Shown here piece by piece: positions 12,643-43,040 of a stretch of 64,000 nt of DNA; position 1 is the first letter of the stretch; every line of letters starts with the position of its first letter. Made by a program: the position numbers and the translations under genes. Below the pieces are notes generated by a model. That model ran no database searches, was not told where the DNA came from, and was given only the letters and a program-made list of their open reading frames with translations. The DNA is from a virus: IMG/VR virus record IMGVR_UViG_3300024231_000003, positions 23,709 to 87,708 of that record; one strand, 5' to 3'.

Positions 12643-12733
12643 GGACAGGTGGGTGAGTGGCTTAAACCAGGGGATTACTAATCCTCCGAACGTTCATAGC
12701 GTTCCGTGGGTTCGAATCCCACCCTGTCTGCCA
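12643..12733 (+). tRNA. tRNA-Ser(ACT), A34 anticodon
   Basis: GGGGA-TT-ACT-AA-TCCTC, long variable arm, G73-CCA. Confidence 0.88.
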
Positions 12734-12739
12734 AAGTTT

Positions 12740-12814
12740 TGGAACGTAGCATAATGGTAATGCACCGCTTTTTGGTAGCGTAGAGTATAGGTTCGAGTCC
12801 TATCGTTCCAGCCA
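12740..12814 (+). tRNA. tRNA-Gln(TTG)
   Basis: U1:A72, G73, CCGCT-TT-TTG-GT-AGCGT, CCA. Confidence 0.85.
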
Positions 12815-12819
12815 AGTTT

Positions 12820-12894
12820 GGTCCCTTCGTCTATCGGTTAGGACGCCAGGTTTTCAACCTGGAAAGACGGGTTCGATTCCCGTAGGGACTACCA
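12820..12894 (+). tRNA. tRNA-Glu(TTC)
   Basis: CCAGG-TT-TTC-AA-CCTGG, CCA. Confidence 0.95.
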
Positions 12895-29578: not shown

Positions 29579-29607
29579 TTGACATAATCTAAATATATCT
29601 ATATAAT
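29579..29607 (+). promoter_or_regulatory. Consensus sigma70 promoter (second TTGACA promoter at 29509)
   Basis: TTGACA-17bp-TATAAT. Confidence 0.8.
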
Positions 29608-29638: not shown

Positions 29639-30394
29639 ATGACTATGACTATAAGAGACGTAGTGCAAGACGTTGTCAAGCACACAGCGGGCTTAGGTTT
29701 TATTAATTGCGTCAAAGTTACTGGCGCTGAACAAGAAACAACACTAGACGCAATGGATAGTGATCGAACAGTTATTTTGCAAGCAAAATTGCATAATGAT
29801 GTGCCAGAATTTGCTGGTGAATTTGGCTTAGGAAATCTAGGCTTTTTAAGTGGCATTACTAACCTTGGTAACTATCAAGCAGATGATGCAACAATAGAAG
29901 TTAGTAAACGTGATCGCAATGGTGTATCTACACCAGACGCATTATTGTTTAAAGACGCAGAAGGCAATACAGACCAATATCGTTTTATGAGCAAGGAAAT
30001 TATTGACCAAACACTACAAACTGTAAAGTTTAAAGGTGCTGAATGGGACGTAACATTTGAGCCAACAAAAGCAAAAGTAAGTGAACTACAACAAGTAGCA
30101 GGCATTTACGGTGGTATTGAACCTAACTTTACTGTTAAGACAGAAAACGGTAATTTAATTGTAACTGTTGGCGCAAGCGATGGTAGCTATACAGGTAAGC
30201 GTACATTTGCACAAAATGTAAATGGCGAACTTAACGAAGGTTATGCATGGCCATTATCACAAGTACTAGCAATTTTAAAACTAGGAATGAGCGGAGCATG
30301 TGTAATGCAAATCTCAAAGCGTGGCGCACTAATGATTAGTGTAGACTCAGGCATTGGCAAATACGATTATATTCTTCCAGCATTAACGGTGTAA
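29639..30394 (+). CDS. Probable DNA polymerase sliding clamp (gp45/PCNA-like)
   Basis: 251 aa two-domain alpha/beta pattern, AMDSDRTVIL, C-terminal YDYILPA; strong RBS. Confidence 0.6.
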   Translation: MTMTIRDVVQDVVKHTAGLGFINCVKVTGAEQETTLDAMDSDRTVILQAKLHNDVPEFAGEFGLGNLGFLSGITNLGNYQADDATIEVSKRDRNGVSTPDALLFKDAEGNTDQYRFMSKEIIDQTLQTVKFKGAEWDVTFEPTKAKVSELQQVAGIYGGIEPNFTVKTENGNLIVTVGASDGSYTGKRTFAQNVNGELNEGYAWPLSQVLAILKLGMSGACVMQISKRGALMISVDSGIGKYDYILPALTV

Positions 30395-30399
30395 ACATT

Positions 30400-31905
30400 A
30401 TGGCGACTAAGGTAAATTTAACTGAACGTAATAAAGATTATAGTGTCTTTTTACCAAGTATTAGTAGTTTTTATGATCGTACAATTAGTAAGTATCGTGA
30501 ATTGGGATCAGACTTTTATCCAGATTCACGTATACCTGCTGCATTTGAAAATGGTATCGAAGGATGTGATTTTCTAAAAACAGATGCCTATTATAATTAT
30601 AAATGGGGATTGTATTCAGCAGGACATGCTCAACTAGACTTAGCTAAAGCTAACACGCATGATAATATGGTACAAGGTCGTGAGAGAGACAAAACATTTA
30701 TCTTAGGCGACTCAGGTGGTTTCCAGATCATTAAAGGAGTTATCCAATGTGATTGGCCTAACTTTAAAACAGATGATACTTTGCGTAAAACAATTCTTAA
30801 TTGGTTGGAACATACTGCAGACTATTCAATGATCTTGGATATTCCAACACTTGCTGCTGATCCAACATTTAGTAAACGAACTGGCATTACTAGTTTTAAT
30901 GAATGTTTAGATTATACTGATTTTAATGTAAATTGGTTCAAAGCTAATCGTAAGTGGAATACAAAATACCTTAATGTTATGCAAGGCCGTAATTGGCAAG
31001 AAGCAGAGTATTGGTATGAGAATATGAAGCACCATGACTTGGATGGTTTTGCATTTGGAGGTGACGCTAAGAACGACATTAACATTATTCTACGTACATT
31101 AATTAAAATGCGTGATGATAAGCAATTAGAAAAAGGCAAACGAGATTTACTACACTACCTAGGTATTAGTAAACTTGAGTGGGCAGCAGCTTATACACAA
31201 ATTAAACGTAGTTTACGTGAAACTGTTAACAGTGATATCGAAGTTATGTTTGATTGTGCCTCTCCTTTTATTGCAACTGCCAAAGGACAAATTTACACAC
31301 AACACAATCACAAAGCTGATAAATTTGGTTATGTGATGGAAAGTGCGGTAGATGATAAACGCCTTGCTGGAAGTCAAATTCCATTCCCTTGGGGCAGTCC
31401 AGTTGGTGAGCGTATGAATATGGGAGACATTTGTCACTATGCGCCAGGTATGCTTAATAAAATTGGTAAAGAAGGTAAAACTTCTTGGGATAGTTTAACA
31501 TATTTCTTGTTAATGTCTCACAATGTTTATCAGCATATCGAAAGTGTACAACGTGCAAACGTATTGGTAGATACTGCAAAAGTACGTTATGACACAAATC
31601 ATAACAACTGGCGCAAACTTAAACATGGTAGCCGTGATGAGCAATTTGATGCTTGGGTACCACGCAATACTTTATATATGGTTAACTTTATTGATGAACT
31701 ATTTAAAAGTGAAACTCCAATGCAAATGTTAGATGAAGCGGCTCCTATGCTTGCTAACTTTAACGGTAAGAAAACTTTAACAACAAGCAACAATAGCTTT
31801 AATAGCTTGTTTGATGTTCAAGAAGTGCAATCATCAATTAATGAAGAATACTCAGAAGAGGAACAAGCAAAAGCTGCTGACTTCCTTGAAACTCTAGAAA
31901 ACTAA
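30400..31905 (+). CDS. TGT-fold guanine transglycosylase (DpdA-like)
   Basis: GDSGGFQ, MILD, VMQG, GFAFGG, HYLG, MFDCASP, SHN motifs of the TGT family. Confidence 0.8.
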   Translation: MATKVNLTERNKDYSVFLPSISSFYDRTISKYRELGSDFYPDSRIPAAFENGIEGCDFLKTDAYYNYKWGLYSAGHAQLDLAKANTHDNMVQGRERDKTFILGDSGGFQIIKGVIQCDWPNFKTDDTLRKTILNWLEHTADYSMILDIPTLAADPTFSKRTGITSFNECLDYTDFNVNWFKANRKWNTKYLNVMQGRNWQEAEYWYENMKHHDLDGFAFGGDAKNDINIILRTLIKMRDDKQLEKGKRDLLHYLGISKLEWAAAYTQIKRSLRETVNSDIEVMFDCASPFIATAKGQIYTQHNHKADKFGYVMESAVDDKRLAGSQIPFPWGSPVGERMNMGDICHYAPGMLNKIGKEGKTSWDSLTYFLLMSHNVYQHIESVQRANVLVDTAKVRYDTNHNNWRKLKHGSRDEQFDAWVPRNTLYMVNFIDELFKSETPMQMLDEAAPMLANFNGKKTLTTSNNSFNSLFDVQEVQSSINEEYSEEEQAKAADFLETLEN

Positions 31906-31916
31906 AGGAAAATAAT

Positions 31917-32105
31917 ATGACTAAAAAAATTAGACTTGTTGACGAAGGCGATATTTCAGATACAGAAAATAATGTAAAAACTAAAGCCCCATCTGCTTCA
32001 ACTGAAACAGTACACATTACTCAAATGCTAAAATATGCAGAAGCTATTGACTGGAAGCTTTGGGAAATCTTAAAGATCCTGAAACATCAAACAGGGGAAG
32101 ATTGA
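31917..32105 (+). CDS. Hypothetical protein
   Basis: AAGGA RBS; IDWKLWE motif. Confidence 0.6.
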   Translation: MTKKIRLVDEGDISDTENNVKTKAPSASTETVHITQMLKYAEAIDWKLWEILKILKHQTGED

Positions 32106-32106
32106 T

Positions 32107-32505
32107 ATGGCTCTAGCCGTAGCAAAACGCCAAATATGGGTAACATTTCAAAAAGAGGGTGTACACTTATATCCTGCGGCGAAAGACGACCCAGCATTGG
32201 CAACTGGAGGATGGGATGATGTATCATTCTTAGGAGTGGCACACCGTCACATTTTCCATTTTCGTGTAGCAATTGACGTATTCCATGATGACCGAGATAT
32301 TGAATTTATTCAATTCAAACGTTGGTTGGAATCATTATATGCTACTAATATACTTGAGCTTAATCATCGTAGTTGTGAGATGATTGCTGAAGAACTAGCA
32401 CAACAAATTCACAACAAATATCAAGGCCGTTCAATCACTATCACTGTAGCAGAAGATAATGAAAACGGTGCAACAATGACATTCAACCCTGAAGAGGAAA
32501 AATAA
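32107..32505 (+). CDS. queD: QueD-like (6-pyruvoyl-tetrahydropterin synthase, T-fold)
   Basis: EGVH, HRHIFHF, DRDIEF, SCEMIA, EDNENGA. Confidence 0.75.
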   Translation: MALAVAKRQIWVTFQKEGVHLYPAAKDDPALATGGWDDVSFLGVAHRHIFHFRVAIDVFHDDRDIEFIQFKRWLESLYATNILELNHRSCEMIAEELAQQIHNKYQGRSITITVAEDNENGATMTFNPEEEK

Positions 32506-32506
32506 A

Positions 32507-32848
32507 ATGTCCAATACTAAAACTTATACAAGTCCTGCTGAAAAGTACAGCATTGGCGGAGTATATTCACTGCAAGACATTAAATATGACTTGCTGAAAA
32601 TTATTGAGCCACATGACGGCTTAATGTATAATCGTAAAGATACTGAGAAAGTAAAACAGATCTTTTCGTCATATCTTACAGATCTACAACGATCTTGGAA
32701 GATGCGTGATCACTCAATTTATATTTCAGAAAAAGCAAATGCTTTTACCTTTGATATTGAAATTCGTATTCACAAAGATCGCAGCCCTAAGAAGCTGAAG
32801 ATCCACGTAGGTAAACTTGTTCACTATCGTGATCGTAAGACAGCCTAA
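32507..32848 (+). CDS. Hypothetical protein
   Basis: Operonic ORF with GAGG RBS. Confidence 0.6.
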   Translation: MSNTKTYTSPAEKYSIGGVYSLQDIKYDLLKIIEPHDGLMYNRKDTEKVKQIFSSYLTDLQRSWKMRDHSIYISEKANAFTFDIEIRIHKDRSPKKLKIHVGKLVHYRDRKTA

Positions 32849-33615
32849 TGAAAACCATTGTTCTAGTCACCGGTGGATTTGATCCACTACACAAAGGCCA
32901 TATCGCTTATTTTGAAGCGGCACGTACTTTGGGCGATGAACTTTGGGTAGGCGTAAACAGTGATGAATGGTTGACCCGTAAGAAAGGTCAACCGTTTATG
33001 CCTATGCAAGACCGTTGTGCAATTGTTAATGCACTTGGATGTGTTGATCAAGTTATTGGATTTAATGACGATGATAACAGCGCAAGCGGTGCAATATTTA
33101 CTACTCAATCAATGAATGGTAACATAAAATTAATCTTTGCTAATGGCGGAGATAGAAATGCAGGAAATATACCAGAAATGGACGCATATAGTCATGACCC
33201 CAATGTTGAATTTGCATTCGGTGTAGGTGGCGAAGATAAAAAGAATAGTTCATCTTGGATTTTAAAAGAGTGGCAAAAGCCAAATACTACTCGACTATGG
33301 GGCAATTATACTGTATTAGATAAACAAGACACTTGGCAAGTTAAAGAGCTATGCTTTGATGTTGGCAAATCATTATCAGATCAGCGTCACTTTGTTCGTA
33401 GTGAACATTGGTGTGTAGTTGATGGACTAGTTAAAATGGAACTAGAATACCCTAATGGTGATAAACTATCAAAAACATATGGTCCAGGTGAGAGTATTGA
33501 TATCCCTACAATGACATGGCATAAAGCCACTAATAGTGGAGATGTACCTGCTAAAGTGGTAGAAGTTTGGATGGGTACTACATTACAAGAAGATGATATT
33601 GAAAGAAGAGATTGA
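32848..33615 (+). CDS. Cytidylyltransferase (RfaE-II-like) fused to type II PMI-like cupin
   Basis: TGGFDPLHKGH, GVNSD, FANGGDR; LSDQRHFVRSEHW, EDDIER. Confidence 0.88.
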   Translation: MKTIVLVTGGFDPLHKGHIAYFEAARTLGDELWVGVNSDEWLTRKKGQPFMPMQDRCAIVNALGCVDQVIGFNDDDNSASGAIFTTQSMNGNIKLIFANGGDRNAGNIPEMDAYSHDPNVEFAFGVGGEDKKNSSSWILKEWQKPNTTRLWGNYTVLDKQDTWQVKELCFDVGKSLSDQRHFVRSEHWCVVDGLVKMELEYPNGDKLSKTYGPGESIDIPTMTWHKATNSGDVPAKVVEVWMGTTLQEDDIERRD

Positions 33616-34421
33616 TGGATACTAGATTTATTGCGGCACTAGATCAGAGTGGTGGATCAACACCAGGTGCATTAGACAACTATGGTGTAGAATACACTGA
33701 ACATAATATGTTTGATAAGATTCATGACATGCGTATGCGTATGGTTAACTCACCAGACTTTAATGACAAAAACATCTGGGCGGCAATCCTCTACCAAGAC
33801 ACAGTCACCCGTGGCATGGTTAATGTGCTTGACGAAAAAGGTATTGACACGTTCCTAAAGATTGACAGTGGTTGCGAGGAAAGCGGATTGCTCAAACAGT
33901 TTCCAGTAAAGCAGATGTTGGAGTGGGCTACTAACGGTATTGGTCCTAAGATTTATGGTACAAAGATGCGTAGCATTGTTAAAGGTGTAAGCATGGTACA
34001 TCCTGTACTCAAACAACAGTTTACACTTGCTCGTACTATTTGGGAGCATGGGCTTGTACCAATCATTGAGCCCGAAGTACCTATCGACAATCCTATTAAA
34101 GCTAAAGTTGAATCAGCTCTTATGCATCACTTGCAAGAGTTCTTGGATGAGTTTCCAGGTAAATGTATTCTCAAACTAACACCGCCAGAAGTACCTAACT
34201 TGTATCACAACCTTACCGTGTTTCCTAATGTAGAACGTGTTGTGTTCCTTAGTGGCGGATATGCTACAGCAGAAGCATGTAACAAACTTGGATTAAACGA
34301 CAATGTCACTGCCAGTTTTAGTAGAGCATTAAGTGAGGGTCTAAAGTATTCATTGACAGACGAAGAGTTTGATGTTAAAATAAGACAAAATATTAAAATG
34401 ATAACAGAGGCAAGTGCATGA
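33612..34421 (+). CDS. Fructose-bisphosphate aldolase class I
   Basis: FIAALDQSGGSTP, GTKMRS, PIIEPEV, LKLT, LSGGY, SFSRAL. Confidence 0.92.
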   Translation: MMDTRFIAALDQSGGSTPGALDNYGVEYTEHNMFDKIHDMRMRMVNSPDFNDKNIWAAILYQDTVTRGMVNVLDEKGIDTFLKIDSGCEESGLLKQFPVKQMLEWATNGIGPKIYGTKMRSIVKGVSMVHPVLKQQFTLARTIWEHGLVPIIEPEVPIDNPIKAKVESALMHHLQEFLDEFPGKCILKLTPPEVPNLYHNLTVFPNVERVVFLSGGYATAEACNKLGLNDNVTASFSRALSEGLKYSLTDEEFDVKIRQNIKMITEASA

Positions 34422-35482
34422 CAAATACAATTTACATTATTCCAATTGAGCCAATTGATCAACGCTATACAAAACAATGGTATGACAATATTCCACAGGT
34501 ACTTTTACAAGAGATCTCCAATAGAGAATTAGATTATAAAGTTATGACTATTGATGGTGAAGACTTTGCACCAGAGCAACGTACTGAAGGTGCTTTCCTA
34601 GACTTTGGCGCAACCAATGTATACAAAGCTAGCCAGACAGTATCAGTAAGCAAATTGTTTAGTAATGGTTTAGTTAAGCCAGGTGATAAGTTTTTAATTA
34701 CTGATGCTTGGAACTTTATTATTACACCAATTAAATATATGAGTGACTTGTTGGATATTCCAGTAGAGATACACAGTATTTGGCATGCAGGTGCATATGA
34801 TCCTAGTGATATTCTTGGATACAAAATGAGCAAGCCTTGGCCTTGGCTACAAGAACAGAGCTGGTTTATGAGTAGTGATTACAATTACTATGCAACTAAC
34901 AGTCACAAGGACATGTTCTTAAAGAACTTAGACATTCCAGAAAAATATGAACATAAAGCAATACGTAGTGGACAACCACATGAGCTTATCGTTGAACCTT
35001 TGTTACAGCGCCAAAACAGCGAGCGTTTTAACACAGTAATGTGGCCACATCGTTACAATGCAGACAAGCAACCTGAAATTGCTGAAGATATGGCATCAGC
35101 TTTTGATATGATTATTACACAAAAGATGGACTTAGATAAAAATGCATATTATGATTTAATGGCAACAAGTAAAGTTATCTTTAGTTGTGCATTGCATGAG
35201 AACTTAGGCATTAGTGTTATGGAAGCAGTACTTACAGGTGCAATTCCAATATTGCCAGATCGTTGTAGTTATGCTGAAATGTATTTGCCAGAGTTTAAAT
35301 ATCCAAGTGAATGGACTGAAAGTTTTGACTCTTACGAACAACACAAAGACAAGCTCAACGCATTTGTACAAGACAAGATTGATAACTATGATAATTATAA
35401 AAACATGGTGAAACAACAACAACAAATACTAATAGATGACTACTTAAATGCATCTATTATGATAGATAAATTATTAGAATAA
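34418..35482 (+). CDS. GT-B glycosyltransferase resembling the queuosine alpha-mannosyltransferase (GTDC1/QTMAN) family
   Basis: VMWPHRYNADKQPE, SCALHENLGISVMEA, PDRCSYAE. Confidence 0.75.
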   Translation: MTNTIYIIPIEPIDQRYTKQWYDNIPQVLLQEISNRELDYKVMTIDGEDFAPEQRTEGAFLDFGATNVYKASQTVSVSKLFSNGLVKPGDKFLITDAWNFIITPIKYMSDLLDIPVEIHSIWHAGAYDPSDILGYKMSKPWPWLQEQSWFMSSDYNYYATNSHKDMFLKNLDIPEKYEHKAIRSGQPHELIVEPLLQRQNSERFNTVMWPHRYNADKQPEIAEDMASAFDMIITQKMDLDKNAYYDLMATSKVIFSCALHENLGISVMEAVLTGAIPILPDRCSYAEMYLPEFKYPSEWTESFDSYEQHKDKLNAFVQDKIDNYDNYKNMVKQQQQILIDDYLNASIMIDKLLE

Positions 35483-35502
35483 TAAAGAAAAGGAGATGTA
35501 AT

Positions 35503-35712
35503 ATGACACCTATCGCAGACGGACTACTAGAAGCAGCTCGCAAACATGCTGAAGGAGTAATAGCATTACATAAAGCAAATGTAATGGTATATTTAAATAA
35601 CCCTGCTGGTATTGGCGAACATAGTGATGTAATGGAAGCTATCCAATCAGAATTAGATAAAATGGCATCCGCACACGACCAACTAGAAATGCTTGATGAA
35701 TATTTCAAATAA
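35503..35712 (+). CDS. Hypothetical phage protein
   Basis: YLNNPAGIGEHSD motif; AGGAG RBS. Confidence 0.7.
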   Translation: MTPIADGLLEAARKHAEGVIALHKANVMVYLNNPAGIGEHSDVMEAIQSELDKMASAHDQLEMLDEYFK

Positions 35713-35760
35713 ATTAAGATATATCAGTAGATATATATATACAAAAGGAACATAGTATAA

Positions 35761-36447
35761 ATGACAAAGACTTCCCAAATTAAACAACGTTTGCTTGATG
35801 CAAATATCCGCCACTGGGCAGGAGATAATATATCTTCAGTACTAGAAGATGGTGACAAAGAAGCACTAATTGATGATGCAACTGTAGCATTTGAAGGTGT
35901 ACTAGATGCACTACTAATTGACAGATTTAACGATCCTAACTCACATGGTACAGCAAAGCGTCTTGCCAAGATGTATTTTAATGAGATTATGGCAGGTCGA
36001 TATGAAGAAGCTCCAGCCGCGACAGCATTTCCAAATGATAACGGACATACATATAAAGGTATGTTAGTGGTACGTAGTGAACTTAAATCAATGTGTTCAC
36101 ACCATCATCAGCCTGTAGCTGGAGTTGCATACATAGGTATAATTCCTGGTGAGAAAGTTATTGGACTTTCAAAGTACACACGTATAGCGCAGTGGTGCGC
36201 ACGTCGAGGTACACTACAAGAAGAACTATGTAATGATATTATGCGAGAAATTATAAAGGCTACTGATAGTGAACACGTTGGTGTTTACATTCAAGCAACA
36301 CACGGCTGTTGTGAGAACAGAGGCATTATGGCACACAGTAGTTTAACACAAACTACAGTTCTTAATGGTGGGTTCTTAGATGATCCTAGTGTTAAGGAAG
36401 AGTTTTTCAATAACATTAAATTACAGCAAGAATTTGCACCACGATAA
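35761..36447 (+). CDS. folE: GTP cyclohydrolase I
   Basis: SMCSHHHQP, IGLSK, RRGTLQE, HGCCENRG. Confidence 0.95.
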   Translation: MTKTSQIKQRLLDANIRHWAGDNISSVLEDGDKEALIDDATVAFEGVLDALLIDRFNDPNSHGTAKRLAKMYFNEIMAGRYEEAPAATAFPNDNGHTYKGMLVVRSELKSMCSHHHQPVAGVAYIGIIPGEKVIGLSKYTRIAQWCARRGTLQEELCNDIMREIIKATDSEHVGVYIQATHGCCENRGIMAHSSLTQTTVLNGGFLDDPSVKEEFFNNIKLQQEFAPR

Positions 36448-36466
36448 ACAAGAACTGGAGAAAACA

Positions 36467-37015
36467 ATGATTAAAAAAGTACACTATACCTGGAAAGATG
36501 TTGAACACATGATCCAGTCAATCAATAACCTTATGTTTGCAGATAATTGGAGACCAGATTATGTAGTAGGACTCACACGTGGTGGCTTAGTACCGTCAGT
36601 TATTTTATCTAACATGACTGGTATTCCAATGCATGCCTTAGATGTAAGGTTCCGTGATACAAACGATACATATGGTCCAGAGAGTAATCTTTGGATGGCA
36701 GAAGATGCACTAGGATACAAGGGAGATGGATTAACACACAAACAGCACCGTAAAAATATTCTTATTATGGATGATATTAATGATAGCGGTCGTACATTGT
36801 CTTGGATTAAAGACGATTGGCGTGGGGGTTGTTTACCAAATGATCCAGCATGGAATGATATCTGGGGAGATACAGTACGCACTGCATGTCTAATAGATAA
36901 TGCTGGCAGTGAATTTGGTGACTGTGATTATACTGCCTTAGAAATTAATAAAAACGAAGAAGACGTTTGGGTAGTATTTCCTTGGGAAGGCGAACGTAAT
37001 TATGGCAACTGCTAA
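36467..37015 (+). CDS. Purine phosphoribosyltransferase (Gpt-like)
   Basis: VGLTRGGLVP, ILIMDDINDSGRT, WVVFPWE. Confidence 0.88.
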   Translation: MIKKVHYTWKDVEHMIQSINNLMFADNWRPDYVVGLTRGGLVPSVILSNMTGIPMHALDVRFRDTNDTYGPESNLWMAEDALGYKGDGLTHKQHRKNILIMDDINDSGRTLSWIKDDWRGGCLPNDPAWNDIWGDTVRTACLIDNAGSEFGDCDYTALEINKNEEDVWVVFPWEGERNYGNC

Positions 37016-37023
37016 ATAGAGCA

Positions 37024-37605
37024 ATGCACACATACAAAATTATTATTAGAGGATATGGTTCACAAGTAAATATTGGAACCATATCTTCTGATATGTATAG
37101 TTACTGGACATCTATAACTGATAGTAACTTAATAACAGATCAACTATTTCCAAATTTTGATAATGGCGGTTATGCTGATGACGTTGAAATAGATCCAGAT
37201 GATATAACTCAAATTGGAATGTGGAAAAGACATAACGATATTTTAACATTATGTAGTCCACTTATAGATTATTTGCACATACTAGTTTATGATGAATCTA
37301 ATAAGATAATACATACTCAAGATTCAATTGATCCAAAATCGTGCAGAACAGTTAATAGTGATGAAATAGGCAGTGGATACTTTATAAAAACAACTTTTGA
37401 TAAAAAAGGAGAGTTTGTAAGTATTGAACTTGAAGCAGAAGAATTTGATCCAACTAAGTTAAGTTTTCATAGCAAATCAGTAGATGGCGATGAATATCTA
37501 GATCGTGTAATGTACGATGGCAAGATGAAGAAAAACAAGCTAGATGACAGTCAAAGGCAGTCAGACGATGATAAACGCACATATCATTTAATAAAAAACA
37601 AATAA
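37024..37605 (+). CDS. Hypothetical protein
   Basis: 193 aa ORF; KGEF..EFDPTKL. Confidence 0.6.
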   Translation: MHTYKIIIRGYGSQVNIGTISSDMYSYWTSITDSNLITDQLFPNFDNGGYADDVEIDPDDITQIGMWKRHNDILTLCSPLIDYLHILVYDESNKIIHTQDSIDPKSCRTVNSDEIGSGYFIKTTFDKKGEFVSIELEAEEFDPTKLSFHSKSVDGDEYLDRVMYDGKMKKNKLDDSQRQSDDDKRTYHLIKNK

Positions 37606-37674: not shown

Positions 37675-40374
37675 ATGAAGAAACTATTAGCTACTATGGC
37701 AATTGCAATAACATTGTTATCTGCAACAACGCCTGTACAAGCATCACAATTTAAAAGTTATTACGCATTGGCTGCTAATTGGCGTCCAGCACAGCAGGTT
37801 AGCTTTGCTAACAGCATGATAGGTGTATACGAACGTAGTAACAGAATGTATTCAAACTTTATTAACAAGTACTCACGTTATGCAGGTGCAAGCTGGTATG
37901 ACAATATGAAGGCACGACATGCATTCCAAGTTAATGAAATTGCAAAGTACAAATTATTAATAGAACAAAGTTCTGCGCCAAAGGTAACATTAGTTGATAC
38001 AGTTGTTACAACAGACGATAGAACACTTGTTAATCGTAAAGCAACTGTGGTTACTAGTAATACGTCAACAGTTGAAGTTGAAACTACTGAAACAATGGTA
38101 AGTGAGTATGCAGTAGTAACACAAATATTGACAACGCCAGTTCATACGATTTATTATACAGTTACTAATACAACTAAAGTATATAGTGATGGTACACGTC
38201 AATCATCAAATGCAGTAAAGGTTAACAGACAAGAAACTGTTGATGAAACAGAAACAAAAATTACACGTGAACTAGTGCGTCAATACGCAGTTGTAATTAA
38301 GCAAGAACCTACTCTATCAGATCCAATTGCTACTGTAGATATTCTAACAGTTGATGAATATTTGGCACGTGCAGATGTAGACTATTCAGGCACACAAGCA
38401 TATATTGATGCAGTACATTCAGTAAACTCTCGCATTAATTCTGCATACATTACAGAAGATCGCGGACTTGCAAAATTTGGTAACTCACTAGCTGCAATTA
38501 ATGCTCCAGAAGCATGGGCACGTGGCTGGACAGGTAAAGGTAGTACTATTGCTATACTAGATACTGGTATTGATACAGATCATACTGAATTTACAGATAG
38601 TATTGCTGATATGAAATGTTTTACTCGTGCATGTAGTACTGGTTACGAAACAATAGAAGACAAAAATCGCTATGCACATGGCACTCATGTTGCAGGCATT
38701 GCAGCAGGTAATTTAGATGGCAATGGCTCAACAGGTGTTGCATATGATGCAGAATTATTAATTGCTAAAACAGCACATGATTTTGGAATGTTTGACTTCA
38801 GTGTTGCAGATGATGCAATTGAATGGGCAGTAGAACGTGGAGCAGATGCTATTAATATTAGTGCAAATTACAATGTAGACCGTACATACAAGTATAGTAT
38901 GAAAGAAATTGCACCTGGTATGTTCCGTTCAAATGACAAACGTGGACGTGATGGTATCACTTATGATAATTATGGATACTCAAATATCTACAACGATCCA
39001 TCATATTATGCTGATATCGTAGAAGCTATGACAGGACATGAAGCAGTATTGGTATTAGCCGCAGGTAATCAGCGTTTAGATTTTGCAGGACAGCCAGCAA
39101 GTTTAGCACTTGATGATGAAATTGGCAATCGTGTACTAGTTGTTGGTAACTATGATATTAAATTTAACAAAATGGCATCTAGCTCAAACAAAGCGGGAAC
39201 TGTATGTTATGACTTTAATGAAACAACACAACAATGTAATAATACTAAACGTGTTTCAGATCGCTTTATCCTTGCTCCTGGTCAGTGGATAATGAGTGCA
39301 GACAATAATGGTGAATATAGAACTAACAGTGGTACATCAATGGCTGCTCCAATAGTATCAGGAGCAGTAGGAATAGTTCATCAAATGTGGCCACATATGA
39401 CAGGTGCAAATATAGCTAAACTACTTCTAGATACTGCAAGCACTGATGAAATTATTGATTATGATGTAAATGTACATGGACAAGGACTGTTGGATTTAAA
39501 TGAAGCTACTACTCCACAAGGAGTACTTGGCATTCCAACAACAGGACGTATTGATGGTAAAAGCACAAGTGTTGATAGAACAGGTACAATTGCAATCAGT
39601 GGAGCAAGTATTAGCGCACTACAAGAAGTTATGGTTGTTGATGATTACGACAGAGACTTTTATTTTGACGCAAATGCATCTATAGCAGTAAATGATACTC
39701 GAACAGCAAGTGCTACACAATCAGCACAGAGCGGGTTTACTCCAGATTATTATATTGGTTATACTGGCGGTAAAATTGTTCCAATATCAAACGGTGCAAT
39801 TAGTATTAATTCAGAAAACAATGAATTTGCATTAGTACAACAGTTTGGTGGCTTTACAGTAGGGTTAGCAAGTGAACAAGATAGTTTCCTTGGTAATGTA
39901 GCAAATAGTGATCTAATGAGAGTAACTGGCGCAACTACAGCATATGTTGGATATGGTTTTGACACTGGCTTACTATTTGGTAATGCACAGTTAGGCGCTA
40001 CTGACTTAGATGTTGACAATACAAGTTTCCTTAAATCTGCAAGCACGTTAATGAGTTATAGTGCAACAGTTGGTACAAAGAAAACAATTGGCAATTCAAC
40101 GTTTGGATTTGTAACAAGTCTTCCAGTATCAATATCAAGTGGACAAGCAAACTTTAATATGCCATCTAGTGTAAGTGCAGACGGTGCAATTCTTAATAGT
40201 GACGCATCAAGCTCATTAGCTACACAGTATCAAGAAGTAGACTTTGGTGTATTTTACAATAATCAAATAACTGATTCAGTAGCATTTGATAGTTTTGCAG
40301 AATTGCGTACAAACTATGCAGGTACAACTAATGATGCAGTACAAGTTGGATTTAACTTTAAGGTAGCATTTTAA
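37675..40374 (+). CDS. Secreted S8 subtilisin-like protease with C-terminal beta-barrel-like domain
   Basis: Signal peptide; LDTG, HGTHVAG, AAGN, SGTSMAAP; ends VGFNFKVAF. Confidence 0.9.
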   Translation: MKKLLATMAIAITLLSATTPVQASQFKSYYALAANWRPAQQVSFANSMIGVYERSNRMYSNFINKYSRYAGASWYDNMKARHAFQVNEIAKYKLLIEQSSAPKVTLVDTVVTTDDRTLVNRKATVVTSNTSTVEVETTETMVSEYAVVTQILTTPVHTIYYTVTNTTKVYSDGTRQSSNAVKVNRQETVDETETKITRELVRQYAVVIKQEPTLSDPIATVDILTVDEYLARADVDYSGTQAYIDAVHSVNSRINSAYITEDRGLAKFGNSLAAINAPEAWARGWTGKGSTIAILDTGIDTDHTEFTDSIADMKCFTRACSTGYETIEDKNRYAHGTHVAGIAAGNLDGNGSTGVAYDAELLIAKTAHDFGMFDFSVADDAIEWAVERGADAINISANYNVDRTYKYSMKEIAPGMFRSNDKRGRDGITYDNYGYSNIYNDPSYYADIVEAMTGHEAVLVLAAGNQRLDFAGQPASLALDDEIGNRVLVVGNYDIKFNKMASSSNKAGTVCYDFNETTQQCNNTKRVSDRFILAPGQWIMSADNNGEYRTNSGTSMAAPIVSGAVGIVHQMWPHMTGANIAKLLLDTASTDEIIDYDVNVHGQGLLDLNEATTPQGVLGIPTTGRIDGKSTSVDRTGTIAISGASISALQEVMVVDDYDRDFYFDANASIAVNDTRTASATQSAQSGFTPDYYIGYTGGKIVPISNGAISINSENNEFALVQQFGGFTVGLASEQDSFLGNVANSDLMRVTGATTAYVGYGFDTGLLFGNAQLGATDLDVDNTSFLKSASTLMSYSATVGTKKTIGNSTFGFVTSLPVSISSGQANFNMPSSVSADGAILNSDASSSLATQYQEVDFGVFYNNQITDSVAFDSFAELRTNYAGTTNDAVQVGFNFKVAF

Positions 40375-40940
40375 TGGTAGGAACATACCAAAGGGGTCAG
40401 CTAGAAATTATAGCTGGCCCTATGTTTGCAGGTAAAAGTAGTGAGCTTTTAAAGAGGCTACTTTATCTTGAACACAGTGGACATAAAGTATTGGTGCTTA
40501 AACCAGTTATAGATGATCGTTATGATGCAAATAGTATAGTAACACACAACCAATTAAAGCACGATGCAATAGCAGTAATTGATTTGGAATTAGTAAAAGA
40601 TAATTACACAATTAAACCTTATAACTTTCACACAGTATTCATTGACGAGGTACAATTCTTTGATCCAAAAGAAACACTATGGTTTGTAGAAGAAGGTTTG
40701 CGTGAAGGAGTTAATTTTGTATGTGCAGGACTTGACCAGGACAGTAGAGGTGTACCATTTGACACAACCGCCCGTATGCTTGCACTAGCAGATAATATTA
40801 TGAAGATAAGGGCATATTGTACTGTATGTGGGCAAAATGCAAGTAAAACACAACGCTTAAGAAGTACTGGTGGCAGAGTAAATGTAGGCGGTACAGAAAC
40901 ATATGAACCACGCTGTCGTAATCATTGGGAAAGTAAGTAA
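40374..40940 (+). CDS. tdk: Thymidine kinase
   Basis: GPMFAGKS, IDEVQFF, CTVC, YEPRCR. Confidence 0.95.
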   Translation: MVGTYQRGQLEIIAGPMFAGKSSELLKRLLYLEHSGHKVLVLKPVIDDRYDANSIVTHNQLKHDAIAVIDLELVKDNYTIKPYNFHTVFIDEVQFFDPKETLWFVEEGLREGVNFVCAGLDQDSRGVPFDTTARMLALADNIMKIRAYCTVCGQNASKTQRLRSTGGRVNVGGTETYEPRCRNHWESK

Positions 40941-41616: not shown

Positions 41617-41784
41617 ATGAATATAGAAGACTCAGATTATGCAATTATAATAACACATGATGGAAAACTAAGAGGAGTTATGCTCTCTGAAGATCCAAAT
41701 CATAAGATGCCTCCAGAAATAGTAAGAATGATACAGCTAGTATATGGTGATGAATTATTTAATCAAGAGAGAGTACTACATTGA
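41617..41784 (+). CDS. Small hypothetical protein (55 aa, not in ORF track)
   Basis: AAGGA RBS, MNIEDSDYAIII...ERVLH; stop overlaps next ATG. Confidence 0.6.
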   Translation: MNIEDSDYAIIITHDGKLRGVMLSEDPNHKMPPEIVRMIQLVYGDELFNQERVLH

Positions 41785-42065
41785 TGGAAAATAGTCCCAT
41801 CAATGCGTTCCAGCAACTAATGGCTATAACTGCAGAAGAATGTAGTGAGCTCACACAAGTTGCAATGAAGCAAATACGCAAATATGATGATGTTAACCAA
41901 ATGGACGACAACATGCATAGACAGTTAATTGAAGAAGTTGGAGATGTTATGTGTATGATTGACCTTATGATTGAATATGGTATAATATCAAAAGATGATA
42001 TAGACGCTAGGATACAGATTAAGCGAGATAAGCTAAAAGTATGGAGTACATTGATACCTCAATGA
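41784..42065 (+). CDS. MazG-like nucleotide pyrophosphohydrolase
   Basis: AEECSEL..IEEVGDV. Confidence 0.78.
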   Translation: MENSPINAFQQLMAITAEECSELTQVAMKQIRKYDDVNQMDDNMHRQLIEEVGDVMCMIDLMIEYGIISKDDIDARIQIKRDKLKVWSTLIPQ

Positions 42066-42073
42066 TAAATGCC

Positions 42074-42102
42074 TTGACACGTTTAATAGAATATTGTATA
42101 AT
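42074..42102 (+). promoter_or_regulatory. Consensus sigma70 promoter
   Basis: TTGACA-17bp-TATAAT. Confidence 0.85.
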
Positions 42103-42143: not shown

Positions 42144-43040
42144 ATGAAACTAAGATATAGTGAAGCATTTTATAGTGTGCAAGGCGAAGGTAAATTTGTA
42201 GGAGTACCTAGCGTATTCTTACGTACATTTGGTTGTAACTTACGTTGTATGAATTTTGGCCTTGGCAGAGATGAACCATCTCGTGCAGAAAAACATGCAG
42301 GCGGTCAACGCTATAATGAAGAAGTGAAAGCACTGTTAGATGCAGGTGTAGATAAAACAACTAAAGAGTTTAACGACTTGCCCATTATACATACTGGTTG
42401 TGATACGTATGCAAGTATATATCCAGAGTTTAAACATTTTAATAAAGAAGCAACTATTGACGAAGTAGTTGAACATTTACTATCACTTACTCCTAATGGA
42501 AAGTGGGTACAGGATAATGGACAGGATGTCCATTTAATTTTAACGGGTGGAGAACCGTTGCTAGCCTGGCAACGACTTTACGTAGAACTATTTGAACACC
42601 CTAGAATGAAGGATTTAAAAAATGTTACTTTTGAAACAAATACAACACAACATCTCCATGATGATTTTTTCCATTACCTCAACAGCACAGATAGGTTTAC
42701 AGTTACTTGGAGTTGTTCGCCTAAACTCAGCACCTCAGGAGAAGATTGGAATGATGCTATTAAGCCTCTTGTTGCTAACGAGTATTCCCGTGTTAATGGC
42801 AGTGAGCTTTACTTTAAATTTGTCGTTGCTAATAATGCAGATTTTGATGAAGTGGAAAAAGCTGTCAGTGCTTATCAGAATGCCGGGCTTCAATGTCCAG
42901 TATATCTTATGCCAATGGGCGGACGCAGTGAAGAATACAATCTCAACGTTACTGACGTGGCTGAAATATGTATGGAAAAAGGATGGAGATTTACACCAAG
43001 ACTCCACATATCACTCTTCGGAAATGCCTGGGGAACTTAA
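42144..43040 (+). CDS. queE: 7-carboxy-7-deazaguanine synthase
   Basis: FYSVQGEG, FLRTFGCNLRC...GCDT, TGGEP, SPKL, RLH. Confidence 0.9.
   Translation: MKLRYSEAFYSVQGEGKFVGVPSVFLRTFGCNLRCMNFGLGRDEPSRAEKHAGGQRYNEEVKALLDAGVDKTTKEFNDLPIIHTGCDTYASIYPEFKHFNKEATIDEVVEHLLSLTPNGKWVQDNGQDVHLILTGGEPLLAWQRLYVELFEHPRMKDLKNVTFETNTTQHLHDDFFHYLNSTDRFTVTWSCSPKLSTSGEDWNDAIKPLVANEYSRVNGSELYFKFVVANNADFDEVEKAVSAYQNAGLQCPVYLMPMGGRSEEYNLNVTDVAEICMEKGWRFTPRLHISLFGNAWGT

What the first reader, a model, noticed from the sequence alone, without database searches (positions are those of the whole stretch)
30400..37015. 7-deazaguanine locus with a queuosine-mannosyltransferase-like enzyme: candidate glycosylated deazaguanine hypermodification
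Seen: one co-directional run holds a TGT-fold transglycosylase, QueD-like, a cytidylyltransferase-cupin fusion, an aldolase, a GT-B glycosyltransferase with WPHRYNADKQPE and HENLGISVMEA, FolE and a purine PRTase, with QueE 5 kb downstream. Established: FolE/QueD/QueE make CDG, and phage DpdA inserts deazaguanines into DNA. By my recollection the WPHR..DK.PE motif matches GTDC1/QTMAN, which mannosylates queuosine. Inference: the phage installs a deazaguanine and then glycosylates it, possibly with a self-made NDP-sugar. I know of no described glycosylated deazaguanine in phage DNA.
Basis: partly seen in the sequence, partly recalled or inferred. Interest (0 to 1): 0.85.

Follow-up and report, generated by a model that had tools for sequence, protein, structure and literature searches.

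The report
Sugar transferase inside phage deazaguanine genes
A marine giant phage carries the genes that replace guanine in DNA with 7-deazaguanine, and a sugar-adding enzyme travels with them in many unrelated phages, so its DNA may hold a sugar-bearing purine that I found in no paper.

Summary
The 501-aa protein has a TGT/DpdA fold. The "QueD-like" gene is DpdL, the QueD paralogue of the QueC-less 7-deazaguanine (dDG) pathway of Cellulophaga phage phiST. The 354-aa protein is an intact GT4 (GT-B) glycosyltransferase.

The new result concerns linkage. GT homologues down to 24% identity lie inside deazaguanine clusters in 5 of 6 cultured-phage regions examined. In four of them the GT directly abuts a TGT-like gene. 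Of 80 IMG/VR loci, 72 have a TGT-like gene in the flank, and 7 of the other 8 are cut off less than 2 kb upstream of the GT. All 23 loci from more distant GT clades also carry deazaguanine genes.

PA5oct, which has the same module, is reported to have a modified G of unknown structure. The QTMAN/GTDC1 likeness was not reproduced: no QTMAN_N domain was found, and the quoted motif aligns with the usual GT4 GRLxxxK motif. No chemistry was tested, and the acceptor atom and the sugar remain unknown.

Ten literature searches found no sugar-bearing deazaguanine described in DNA. This scan has flagged the same module many times on other DNA. My reading: a DpdL-type deazaguanine DNA module with an added glycosylation step (about 0.5).

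The parts
29579..29607 (+). sigma-70-like promoter (TTGACA-17-TATAAT, 12 of 12) ahead of the run
   Evidence: The total number of promoter-like sites is not above shuffles (78 against 66.7 +/- 9.3), so only the perfect match is notable.
29639..30394 (+). sliding-clamp-like protein, first gene of the run
   Evidence: phrog_12062, 5.1e-54. 39% identical to PAC2 'PCNA' and 41% to the Phosso 'sliding clamp beta'. Present in 56 of 80 loci.
30400..31905 (+). TGT-superfamily transglycosylase, DpdA-like ('type A'), the proposed inserter of the deazaguanine base into DNA
   Evidence: Fold. D104 (DSGGFQ), D147 and D285 (FDCASP) are invariant in 30 relatives. 34% identical to the PA5oct-type protein that abuts its GT. 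No PF01702 match. No CxCxxC zinc motif (read).
31917..32105 (+). 62-aa ORF of unknown function
   Evidence: tblastn match in 13 of 80 loci. No family match.
32107..32505 (+). DpdL, the QueD paralogue proposed to be a CDG decarboxylase
   Evidence: Carries the signature LxxxHRHxF (L-GVA-HRH-I-F), as defined in PMC10516641 section 16. 33% identical (E 5e-9) to the phiST DpdL region. 44-68% identical to the partner gene in all 5 cultured GT lineages. Present in 70 of 80 loci.
32507..32848 (+). 113-aa protein of unknown function
   Evidence: No family match. tblastn match in 20 of 80 loci.
32848..33615 (+). nucleotidyltransferase (RfaE domain II / TagD type) fused to a type II phosphomannose-isomerase cupin; proposed NDP-sugar supply
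   Evidence: Present in 48 of 80 loci, so optional.
33612..34421 (+). class I aldolase (Fda/PRK05377 type); overlaps both neighbouring genes by 4 nt
   Evidence: NF003784, 3e-77, 259.9 bits against a cut-off of 392. Present in only 9 of 80 loci.
34418..35482 (+). GT4 (GT-B, retaining-type) glycosyltransferase, the enzyme in question
   Evidence: Model pLDDT 87.0. Z 25.6 to 6kih, 24.2 to BshA and 18.2 to T4 alpha-GT. E261-x7-E269, H123/H211, R212 and K217 are invariant or nearly invariant in 66 relatives with mean column identity 27%. Linked to TGT-like, DpdL, QueE and FolE genes.
35503..35712 (+). 69-aa protein, phrog_1811, unknown function
   Evidence: No match in the 80 loci at 1e-5.
35761..36447 (+). 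FolE, GTP cyclohydrolase I
   Evidence: PF01227, 1.5e-38. Present in 72 of 80 loci.
36380..37015 (+). purine-type phosphoribosyltransferase
   Evidence: PF00156, 1.1e-11. XPRT model, 1.7e-9, below its cut-off. Present in 56 of 80 loci. Weak match to the PAC2 PRTase (22% identity, E 7e-4).
41781..42065 (+). MazG-like NTP pyrophosphohydrolase (C-terminal half of the profile only)
   Evidence: phrog_4856, 1.7e-18, profile positions 81-170 of 195. phiST also has a MazG gene next to DpdL.
42074..42102 (+). second perfect sigma-70-like promoter, ahead of queE
42144..43040 (+). divergent QueE (CDG synthase)
   Evidence: phrog_2076, 4.5e-53. NCBIfam QueE models, 6e-13 to 1e-8, all below their cut-offs. 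28% identical (E 5e-31) to the PAC2 QueE.

Best explanation
This is the DNA guanine-replacement module of an uncultured marine jumbo phage. The contig is 87.7 kb and CheckV puts its completeness at 24%.

Proposed pathway:
- FolE, a QueD encoded elsewhere in the genome, and QueE make 7-carboxy-7-deazaguanine from GTP.
- There is no QueC, so the pathway does not reach preQ0.
- DpdL converts CDG to 7-deazaguanine, as proposed for phage phiST.
- The TGT-fold protein exchanges guanine in phage DNA for that base.
- The PRTase most simply salvages the released guanine back towards GTP.

A GT4 glycosyltransferase is fixed to this known core. I propose that it adds a sugar to the deazaguanine base, either on DNA after insertion or on the free base before insertion. 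This would be a second layer of hypermodification, as glucose is for hmC in T4. In this phage the nucleotidyltransferase-isomerase fusion and the aldolase would feed an NDP-sugar of the mannose or heptose type.

Shown here: the folds, the families, the conserved catalytic residues, the gene linkage across lineages and the lack of QueC. Inferred: the DNA target, the DpdL reaction, every step involving the sugar, the acceptor atom and the role of the PRTase.
For: Identity of the core:
- TGT fold with invariant Asp motifs.
- DpdL signature and homology to phiST.
- FolE and QueE.
- QueC (PF06508) matched 0 of 5 records: this contig, a 322.6-kb relative that is 90% complete, two further relatives, and the complete PAC2 genome. 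The control rang in 14 of 14 genomes.

GT linkage in cultured phages:
- PAC2/PA5oct type: TGT-like and GT overlap by 1 nt, followed by DpdL, an SDR epimerase fragment, PRTase and QueE.
- ACP17: QueD, FolE, then a TGT-like gene overlapping the GT by 4 nt, then DpdL and QueE.
- X1: GT directly followed by the annotated queuine tRNA-ribosyltransferase, then DpdL and QueE.
- BCSR5: GT followed by a 446-aa protein carrying DSGGFQ, then QueE and FolE.
- Phosso: DpdL, GT, FolE and QueE.
- GT identity to the window protein is 24-43% in these phages, while DpdL identity is 44-68%.
- The order TGT then GT is reversed between lineages, so the link is not simple inherited synteny.

GT linkage in uncultured phages:
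- 80 IMG/VR loci: FolE 72, DpdL 70, a TGT-like gene 72 (63 type A, 9 type B), QueE 56, PRTase 56.
- 7 of the 8 loci without a TGT-like gene have the GT less than 2 kb from the start of the locus.
- A 92%-complete 166.9-kb relative lacks the type A protein but has a type B TGT-like gene 1.1 kb from its GT.
- 23 loci found from more distant GT clades: all 23 hold at least one of DpdL, QueE or FolE, and 15 hold a TGT-like gene.
- A MAG contig with a 50%-identical GT has the same set.

GT integrity: the EX7E motif and the donor-binding H, R and K residues are conserved. The N-terminal (acceptor) half is as conserved as the donor half across 66 sequences, which suggests one shared acceptor.

Precedent: a GT with a GT4-type domain (PF13439), HuiG, glycosylates a free 7-deazapurine base (bioRxiv 10.64898/2026.04.15.718813, passages).
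Against: - No chemical datum exists for this phage or for any GT-bearing relative. The PA5oct data show a modified G but not its structure.
- 7-deazaguanine has no hydroxyl or amine at C7, so the acceptor atom is not obvious. Candidates are N2, or a C-glycoside at C7 or C8.
- phiST makes plain dDG without any GT. DpdL occurs without the GT in 8 of 13 cultured lineage groups (my grouping). The GT is therefore not needed for base replacement.
- The GT model is no closer to a DNA glucosyltransferase (T4 alpha-GT, Z 18.2) than to ordinary small-molecule GT4 enzymes (Z 22-25.6).
- The window protein scores below Pfam's cut-off for Glycos_transf_1 (17.9 against 26.4 bits).
- Two distant GT loci with full 10-kb upstream flanks (L102, L119) showed no TGT-like gene. 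L007 has 6 kb upstream and none.
- The sugar-supply genes are optional: nucleotidyltransferase-cupin in 48 of 80 loci, aldolase in 9 of 80.
- The most distant cultured homologue (PhiXhv-12, 22% identity, E 1e-8) sits next to GlmS and a BshB-like deacetylase instead.
- A tRNA target is not excluded. The window encodes tRNA-Asn(GTT) and tRNA-Asp(GTC).
- No canonical QueD lies on this contig.
Confidence: 0.5

Rival explanations
1. The GT glycosylates a free 7-deazapurine base or nucleotide that never enters DNA. This could be a huimycin-like small molecule or a transient protected intermediate. The DNA itself would carry only plain 7-deazaguanine.
For: HuiG carries a GT4-type domain (PF13439) and glycosylates a free 7-deazapurine with UDP-GlcNAc. 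Tubercidin clusters lack QueC and combine CDG with a PF00156 PRTase, as here. The GT model resembles small-molecule GT4 enzymes best: BshA, LmbT, the pteridine glucosyltransferase 5zer at Z 20.9, and SenB.
Against: In four lineages the GT abuts or overlaps the DNA/RNA transglycosylase gene. It lies in replication-gene neighbourhoods (clamp, polymerase, primase), not next to transporters or regulators. A phage has no evident use for a secreted nucleoside antibiotic.
Confidence: 0.14
2. The target is tRNA, not DNA. The TGT-like enzyme would put a deazaguanine at G34 of phage or host GUN tRNAs, and the GT would decorate it, as QTMAN decorates queuosine.
For: The window encodes tRNA-Asn(GTT) and tRNA-Asp(GTC). 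The model is as close to the tRNA enzymes (ArcTGT Z 18.5, TGT 17.2) as to DpdA (15.7). Earlier notes of this scan report QTMAN-family proteins as the nearest cellular relatives of such GTs; I did not verify this.
Against: PA5oct, with the same module, has restriction-resistant, G-modified DNA. All DpdL phages that have been measured carry dDG in DNA. No QTMAN_N domain was found. The zinc site of the tRNA enzymes is missing.
Confidence: 0.08
3. The modified base enters DNA at the nucleotide level. The PRTase would make a CDG or deazaguanine ribonucleotide, as in tubercidin biosynthesis. This would be reduced, phosphorylated and used by the phage polymerase, with MazG clearing dGTP. The TGT-like protein and the GT would have other roles.
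For: PRTase occurs in 56 of 80 loci and in PAC2. A MazG-like gene lies before queE, and one sits next to DpdL in phiST. Ribonucleotide reductase and thymidine kinase are in the window.
Against: PRTase was not found in the ACP17, X1, BCSR5 or Phosso clusters. A TGT-like gene is present in nearly every locus with enough flank. The authors of PMC10516641 argue that all known cases are post-replicative.
Confidence: 0.1
4. The GT has nothing to do with the base. It would act on a host surface glycan or on a protein, and sit here only because early auxiliary genes gather in this region.
For: The fold is generic GT4. A distant homologue lies in an amino-sugar context. Unrelated genes (subtilase, thymidine kinase) are also inserted in this run.
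Against: Linkage survives 24-43% GT identity, reversed gene order and five host genera. Start and stop codons overlap with those of the TGT-like gene. The nearest ESM Atlas clusters are viral.
Confidence: 0.08

Closest known systems
DpdL/DpdA3 7-deazaguanine (dDG) system of Cellulophaga phage phiST (Cui, Hutinet et al., NAR 2023, PMC10516641)
   Same: FolE, QueE and DpdL with the LxxxHRHxF signature, a MazG-like neighbour, no QueC, a divergent TGT-superfamily gene, and a position beside replication genes.
   Different: phiST has no GT and no PRTase in the stretch examined. Its putative DpdA3 (gp042, 259 aa) shows no detectable similarity to the 501-aa protein here. It has no sugar-activation genes. 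The window contig lacks a canonical QueD.
PA5oct / Wroclawvirus jumbo phages of Pseudomonas aeruginosa (modified G reported in PMC12191111)
   Same: Homologous clamp, TGT-like (34% identity), GT (36%), DpdL (58%), QueE (28%) and a PRTase in one run. These are cultured phages in which G modification of DNA has been shown by restriction resistance.
   Different: The TGT-like gene and the GT abut directly. An SDR epimerase fragment takes the place of the nucleotidyltransferase-cupin and the aldolase. The structure of the modified base was not determined in the passages I read.
T4 glucosyl-hydroxymethylcytosine (alpha- and beta-glucosyltransferases)
   Same: A base replacement followed by sugar transfer from an NDP-sugar onto DNA. 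T4 alpha-GT is also GT-B (1y6f, Z 18.2).
   Different: T4 modifies a pyrimidine with a hydroxymethyl handle made at the nucleotide level. Here the base is a purine analogue inserted by transglycosylation and it has no obvious handle.
QTMAN / GTDC1, tRNA-queuosine alpha-mannosyltransferase (Pfam QTMAN_N PF12038 plus Glycos_transf_1)
   Same: A GT4-type enzyme that puts a sugar on a 7-deazaguanine derivative already in a nucleic acid, which is the same logic.
   Different: No QTMAN_N match in the contig or in 96 family members. The motif aligns to the generic GT4 GRLxxxK motif. The QTMAN acceptor is the cyclopentenediol of queuosine, which this pathway cannot make.
Huimycin (HuiG) and tubercidin biosynthesis in actinomycetes
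   Same: Glycosylation of a 7-deazapurine base by a GT with a GT4-type domain (PF13439). QueC-less use of CDG together with a PF00156 PRTase.
   Different: These are secondary-metabolite clusters with regulators and transporters and no nucleic-acid transglycosylase. The huimycin paper itself was seen only in a search listing.

Membership tests
TGT / DpdA superfamily | TGT-type TIM-barrel fold | tested here: met
   All 50 Foldseek rows listed are TGT chains, E about 1e-7. VIA-align: 1iq8 Z 18.5 (rmsd 4.8, 298 aligned), 7ui4 DpdA Z 15.7 (rmsd 4.4, 302 aligned). The next unrelated TIM barrel scores 11.8.
TGT / DpdA superfamily | Catalytic aspartates (DSGGFQ-type motif and the FDC-type nucleophile; their roles are recalled from Z. 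mobilis TGT) | tested here: met
   D104-S-G-G-F-Q, D147 and D285 (FDCASP) are invariant in 30 relatives. DSGG[FL]Q is also present in the PAC2, ACP17, X1 and BCSR5 neighbours of the GT.
TGT / DpdA superfamily | Match to Pfam TGT (PF01702) | tested here: not met
   No match at E <= 0.01 by hmmscan or at E <= 1 in a six-frame search. The control rang in 14 of 14 genomes.
TGT / DpdA superfamily | CxCxxC...H zinc site (recalled) | tested here: not met
   The protein has five Cys (positions 56, 117, 169, 286, 345) and none lies in a CxCxxC arrangement (read). Only C169 is invariant.
TGT / DpdA superfamily | Exchanges guanine in DNA for a 7-deazaguanine | not testable with these tools
   Indirect only: G-modified PA5oct DNA.
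Named DpdA subfamilies (DpdA1-4, bDpdA) | Sequence kinship to a named subfamily | tested here: inconclusive
   No tblastn hit at 1e-5 to Cellulophaga or Campylobacter phages, or to any other record outside the 22 listed. hhalign against phiST gp042 gave probability 3.6%. Against the X1 and BCSR5 TGT-like proteins only the DSGGFQ region aligned. No reference set of DpdA1, DpdA2 or DpdA4 sequences was available.
DpdL | Signature LxxxHRHxF replacing the CxxxHGH of QueD | tested here: met
   L-GVA-HRH-I-F in the 132-aa protein. Definition from PMC10516641 section 16.
DpdL | Homology to phiST DpdL and occurrence with FolE, QueE and a DpdA-type gene but without QueC | tested here: met
   33% identity, E 5e-9, over 91% of the query, to the phiST gp040 region. 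QueC absent from 5 of 5 records.
DpdL | Decarboxylates CDG | not testable with these tools
   This is only a proposal in the source paper, where reconstitution with the phiST and ACP17 genes failed.
GT4 / GT-B glycosyltransferases | Two-Rossmann-domain GT-B fold | tested here: met
   pLDDT 87.0. 6kih Z 25.6 (rmsd 3.1, 318 aligned), 6n1x Z 24.2, 8dqd Z 23.1. Foldseek E 4e-10 to BshA.
GT4 / GT-B glycosyltransferases | EX7E motif and donor-binding basic residues | tested here: met
   E261-NLGISVM-E269. E269 is invariant; E261, H211, R212 and K217 are conserved in at least 90% of 66 relatives.
GT4 / GT-B glycosyltransferases | Pfam Glycos_transf_1 above the gathering score | tested here: inconclusive
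   The window protein scores 17.9 bits against a cut-off of 26.4. 28 of 30 close relatives (E <= 10) and 41 of 66 distant relatives (E <= 0.01) match the family.
QTMAN / GTDC1 | N-terminal QTMAN_N domain (PF12038) | tested here: not met
   0 matches at E <= 10 in the contig. 0 of 30 relatives at E <= 10. 0 of 66 at E <= 0.01. HMMER's filters drop most matches weaker than about E 0.1.
QTMAN / GTDC1 | Specific kinship of the donor half, or of the WPHR..DK.PE motif | not tested
   No QTMAN sequence could be obtained. None appeared in the PDB search results I saw. PF12038 matched 0 of 88 bacterial genomes searched. The motif aligns to FIGRLDHNKNP of WlaC, the generic GT4 motif.
QueE (CDG synthase) | Family-level sequence match | tested here: met
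   phrog_2076, 4.5e-53, over residues 1-297. Five NCBIfam QueE models at 6e-13 to 1e-8, all far below their equivalog cut-offs. No Pfam match at 0.01.

The most novel reading that the evidence does not exclude
These phages make a sugar-bearing 7-deazaguanine in their virion DNA. This would be the first glycosylated purine analogue reported in DNA. It would be made by a virus-specific GT4 family that works together with, and perhaps bound to, a DpdA-type transglycosylase. It would be common in marine jumbo and T4-like phages and present in cultured phages of Pseudomonas, Acidovorax, Xanthomonas, Burkholderia and Sinorhizobium. The highly conserved DpdL of the GT-bearing lineages (44-68% identical among them, 33% to phiST) may supply a different handle from that of the phiST enzyme.
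Probability: 0.45. Interest if true: 0.9.

Novelty: new variant of a known kind. Interest (0 to 1): 0.78.

Why it matters
All sugar-bearing DNA bases described in the papers I read are pyrimidines (glucosyl- and arabinosyl-hmC, glycosylated 5-hydroxycytosine, thymidine derivatives). The eight 7-deazaguanine derivatives listed in PMC10516641 carry no sugar.

A glycosylated deazaguanine would be a new class of DNA hypermodification. It would bear on restriction, CRISPR and DNA-glycosylase defences, on sequencing of environmental phage DNA, and on enzymatic tools for labelling DNA.

The family is large. 2164 representatives at 50% identity scored E <= 1e-3. The locus occurs in seawater metagenomes from 20 studies.

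The idea is cheap to test because at least five groups of cultured phages carry the module. It may also explain two open points: the undetermined G modification of the therapy-candidate phage PA5oct, and the failure to reconstitute the ACP17 DpdL plus DpdA pair in E. coli, where the authors suggested another enzyme might be needed.

Tried and rejected
- Megablast of the locus against cultured phages found nothing.
- Sequence searches of the PDB with single proteins and with profiles gave no meaningful match for the TGT-like protein. For the GT they gave only repeat noise, or weak GT4 matches.
- QTMAN test. PF12038 did not match the contig or the family members. I tried to obtain bacterial QTMAN_N proteins for a profile comparison and failed: 0 of 88 genomes of the only bacterial phylum I could reach had a match. 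The recalled motif match therefore stays untested. The earlier notes claiming QTMAN kinship are neither confirmed nor refuted by me.
- No fused, longer forms of the GT were found. The tool itself rates this as weak evidence.
- hhalign of the TGT-like profile against single sequences from X1, BCSR5 and phiST gave only low-probability local matches. I cannot place the protein in a named DpdA subfamily.
- An alignment-based IMG/VR scan with the diverse alignment failed. One single-protein scan found no confirmed relative, and two others found one locus each.
- Laying public runs showed contigs of three metatranscriptome libraries and one DNA run over the locus. Contigs cannot show base modification, and RNA libraries can hold DNA. 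I draw no conclusion on expression or modification.
- I considered a pterin-glycoside reading (FolE plus a PTPS-like gene plus a GT, as in cyanobacterial BH4 glucoside; 5zer Z 20.9). I set it aside because QueE and a TGT-like gene are part of the conserved set.
- The 'QueD' label was rejected in favour of DpdL. A canonical QueD was sought on the contig and not found (PF01242 at E <= 1; tblastn best E 0.14).
- Not-in-print claim. The searches were (plus for QTMAN). Only one work, held in two versions, contains both 'DpdL' and 'deazaguanine'. The library lacks most subscription journals.
Supplementary Data S1 of PMC10516641 may already list DpdL/DpdA homologues in PA5oct, ACP17 or relatives, and could mention neighbouring genes.

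Full report
WHAT IS THERE

The window lies in an 87,708-bp IMG/VR virus record. CheckV rates it 24% complete, which implies a genome of roughly 350 kb. From 29639 to 37605 twelve + strand ORFs are packed almost without gaps. Intergenic distances are 5, 11, 1, 1, -1, -4, -4, 20, 48, -68 and 8 nt. A perfect TTGACA-17-TATAAT lies at 29579-29607, and a second one at 42074-42102 precedes queE.

The genes in order are:
- a sliding-clamp-like protein;
- the 501-aa TGT-like protein;
- a 62-aa ORF;
- the 132-aa T-fold protein;
- a 113-aa unknown;
- a nucleotidyltransferase fused to a type II phosphomannose-isomerase cupin;
- a class I aldolase;
- the 354-aa glycosyltransferase;
- a 69-aa unknown;
- FolE;
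- a purine-type PRTase.

After an inserted subtilase and a thymidine kinase come a MazG-like ORF and a divergent QueE.

THE TRANSGLYCOSYLASE

The 501-aa protein matches no Pfam, NCBIfam, PHROG or PDB sequence. Its AF2 model has pLDDT 87.8 and pTM 0.88. Foldseek listed 50 rows and all are tRNA-guanine transglycosylases. A Foldseek-independent search placed five TGT-superfamily chains on top:
- archaeosine TGT, Z 18.5;
- QTRT2, Z 17.4;
- bacterial TGT, Z 17.2;
- the DNA preQ0 insertase DpdA, Z 15.7;
- Cap10, Z 14.4.

Other TIM barrels scored 11.8 or less. GDSGGFQ, ILD and FDCASP are invariant in 30 relatives. By recall these correspond to the catalytic and substrate-binding aspartates of TGT. 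The CxCxxC zinc motif is absent.

The protein is not detectably related to phiST's putative DpdA3. It shares only the DSGG[FL]Q region with the TGT-like proteins of X1 and BCSR5. I call it type A. ACP17, X1 and the relative G004 carry type B. BCSR5 carries a third type.

THE 'QueD-LIKE' GENE IS DpdL

The 132-aa protein carries L-GVA-HRH-I-F. Cui, Hutinet et al. give LxxxHRHxF as the signature that distinguishes DpdL from QueD, which has CxxxHGH (PMC10516641, section 16 read whole). It is 33% identical (E 5e-9) to the phiST gene next to MazG.

No canonical QueD is on this contig. One is present in two near-complete relatives, in PAC2 and in ACP17. QueC is absent from this contig, from relatives of 322.6 kb (90% complete), 235 kb and 168 kb, and from the complete PAC2 genome. 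The control rang in 14 of 14 genomes.

The pathway is therefore the QueC-less DpdL type. In phiST that pathway gives 302,000 dDG per 10^6 nucleotides with no dG signal detected.

THE GLYCOSYLTRANSFERASE

The model has pLDDT 87.0 and is a standard GT-B fold of the GT4 kind:
- sucrose-phosphate synthase 6kih, Z 25.6;
- BshA, Z 24.2;
- LmbT, Z 23.2;
- PglA, Z 23.1;
- PimA, Z 22.3;
- the pteridine glucosyltransferase 5zer, Z 20.9;
- T4 alpha-glucosyltransferase, Z 18.2.

The EX7E motif and the H, R and K residues of the donor site are conserved in 66 relatives whose mean column identity is 27%. The N-terminal half is conserved just as strongly, which suggests a common acceptor.

The family is large. 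2164 representatives at 50% identity scored E <= 1e-3, and 328 scored E <= 1e-30. By ESM Atlas features its nearest clusters are viral.

The QTMAN likeness was not reproduced. PF12038 (QTMAN_N) matched nothing in the contig, 0 of 30 close relatives and 0 of 66 distant relatives. In a profile alignment, FPHRxxxEKQP lines up with FIGRLDHNKNP of the GT4 enzyme WlaC, so the quoted motif is a variant of the ordinary GT4 motif. I could not obtain a QTMAN sequence, so the recalled motif identity remains untested. Several earlier notes of this scan claim that QTMAN-family proteins are the nearest cellular relatives. I neither confirm nor refute that.

LINKAGE, THE MAIN RESULT

tblastn found the GT in 22 cultured-phage records, and I opened six regions.
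- PAC2 (PA5oct type; GT 36% identical): polymerase, clamp, TGT-like (type A), then a GT overlapping it by 1 nt, DpdL, an unknown, an SDR epimerase fragment, PRTase and QueE.
- ACP17 (29%): QueD, FolE, an unknown, TGT-like (type B), then a GT overlapping it by 4 nt, DpdL and QueE.
- X1 (26%): FolE, a PAPS-reductase-like protein, two unknowns, GT, then the annotated queuine tRNA-ribosyltransferase, DpdL and QueE.
- BCSR5 (24%): GT, then a 446-aa protein with DSGGFQ, QueE and FolE, with DpdL upstream.
- Phosso (43%): clamp, 'glycosylase', DpdL, GT, FolE and QueE, with its TGT-like gene elsewhere in the genome.
- PhiXhv-12 (22%, E 1e-8) is the exception. Its GT lies next to GlmS and a BshB-like deacetylase.

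DpdL is the best-conserved partner, at 44-68% identity.

In the other direction, DpdL occurs in 29 records that I group into 13 lineages. Only 5 of these have the GT. phiST and RHph_I1_18 have DpdL without it. The GT is therefore an optional addition to DpdL-type clusters, and in every region I opened it appears only inside them, apart from the borderline PhiXhv group.

Uncultured phages give the same picture. An IMG/VR scan found 139 relatives and kept 80. In flanks of up to 10 kb, phmmer found:
- FolE in 72 of 80;
- DpdL in 70;
- a TGT-like gene in 72 (63 type A, 9 type B);
- QueE in 56;
- PRTase in 56;
- clamp in 56;
- nucleotidyltransferase-cupin in 48;
- QueD in 37;
- aldolase in 9, by tblastn.

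Of the 8 loci without a TGT-like gene, 7 have the GT less than 2 kb from the start of the locus, and one (L007) has 6 kb upstream.

G004 is a 92%-complete 166.9-kb relative. It lacks any type A homologue but encodes a type B protein with DSGGLQ 1.1 kb from the GT.

From four more distant GT clades I recovered 23 loci. All 23 have at least one of DpdL (17), QueE (15) or FolE (18), and 15 have a TGT-like gene. Of the other 8, six are cut off upstream, and two (L102, L119) have full flanks with no TGT-like gene detected.

A MAG contig labelled Deltaproteobacteria carries the same set.

Many of the 80 loci are close relatives, so they are not independent. The weight of the argument rests on the divergent lineages and on the reversed gene order.

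HOW IT PROBABLY WORKS

Established by others:
- FolE, QueD and QueE make CDG, and QueC is needed for preQ0.
- DpdA-type enzymes exchange G in DNA.
- DpdL phages contain dDG (PMC10516641).
- PA5oct DNA resists five restriction enzymes and is attacked by nucleases that sense modified G. The authors infer a deazaguanine and do not report its structure in the passages I read (PMC12191111).

My inferences:
- The phage makes 7-deazaguanine and the type A enzyme inserts it into DNA.
- The PRTase recycles the released guanine.
- The GT adds a sugar to the base before or after insertion.
- Here the sugar donor would be supplied by the nucleotidyltransferase-isomerase fusion and the aldolase. In PA5oct the SDR epimerase would play a part.

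The acceptor atom is unknown, because 7-deazaguanine has no C7 handle. Possibilities are N2 (by recall, the position glycosylated in huimycin-type compounds), a C-glycoside, or a different product of the GT-lineage DpdL.

The authors' failure to reconstitute dDG with ACP17 DpdL plus DpdA, with 'other unknown enzymes' suggested, is compatible with a missing GT step but does not show it.

RIVALS

The rivals are a free-base or nucleotide product, a tRNA target, nucleotide-level incorporation through the PRTase, and an unrelated GT. They are set out with their evidence in the Rival explanations section. None is excluded. The tRNA reading is kept alive by the tRNA-Asn(GTT) and tRNA-Asp(GTC) genes in the window.

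ENVIRONMENT

The locus is held by 20 runs of seawater samples from 20 studies, six of them RNA libraries. Contigs of three RNA libraries and one DNA run cover it. This shows presence only.

NOVELTY

The core is a known kind of system. The GT-bearing form is not described in any paper I could search. Only one work, held in two versions, mentions DpdL together with deazaguanine. The papers on X1 (passages), on jumbo phages (passages) and on DNA glycosylases (passages) do not address it. Hutinet 2019 contains none of the words ACP17, PA5oct or glycosyl.

This scan has reached the same reading on many other genomes. That is not independent evidence.

VERDICT

I rate it a new variant of a known kind of system, of high interest because it is surprising if true and directly testable on cultured phages.

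Noticed in passing
window 6824-8077, 19498-20760, 56657-58087, 58631-59896: Four separate radical-SAM proteins of about 420-480 aa all match phrog_14086. That is an unusual number for one phage fragment. Their function is unknown and they appear unrelated to QueE.
   Followed up: no
window 37675-40940: An 899-aa subtilase (PF00082, 3.1e-38) and a thymidine kinase are inserted between the PRTase and queE. The subtilase occurs in only 19 of 80 related loci. One RNA-library contig joins 36359 directly to 42144 with a short side of 29 letters, which hints at a related strain lacking this block.
   Followed up: partly
window 5521-6423 and 12643-12894: There are twelve tRNA genes in two clusters. 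They include Asn(GTT) and Asp(GTC), which are normal TGT substrates, and a tRNA-Ser with anticodon ACT.
   Followed up: no
L126 6221-7372 (Vibrio phage Bakedbeans gp176): Here DpdL forms the C-terminal third of a 383-aa protein next to FolE. This is a natural fusion whose N-terminal part might point to DpdL's partner or substrate.
   Followed up: no
L084 6332-6865 (X1) and L085 6152-6799 (BCSR5): A PAPS-reductase-family ATP-pyrophosphatase-like protein (PF01507, 1e-13) is conserved in the GT-bearing clusters of X1 and BCSR5 (42% identical to each other) but is not found in the window. It could take a QueC-like or other adenylating role in those lineages.
   Followed up: no
L086 5768-9002 (Xanthomonas phage PhiXhv-12): The most distant cultured GT homologue (22% identity) lies after GlmS and a BshB-like deacetylase, not in a deazaguanine cluster. 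This may mark the edge of the family or a different amino-sugar modification.
   Followed up: no
L127 (NYUB01000109.1, 15.8-kb contig of a MAG labelled Deltaproteobacteria): The contig carries QueE, a type A TGT-like gene, DpdL, a GT (50% identical), FolE and QueD in one run. It is most likely a phage contig binned into a bacterial MAG.
   Followed up: partly
window 41781-42065: The MazG-like ORF matches only positions 81-170 of a 195-position profile, and its stop-to-stop frame starts at 41763. It is either a short form or the remnant of a longer gene.
   Followed up: partly
L001 12422-12934 (PAC2): The 'epimerase' next to the PRTase is only 170 aa and covers only the N-terminal Rossmann part of PF01370 (profile positions 1-112 of 240). 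Whether it is active is unclear.
   Followed up: no
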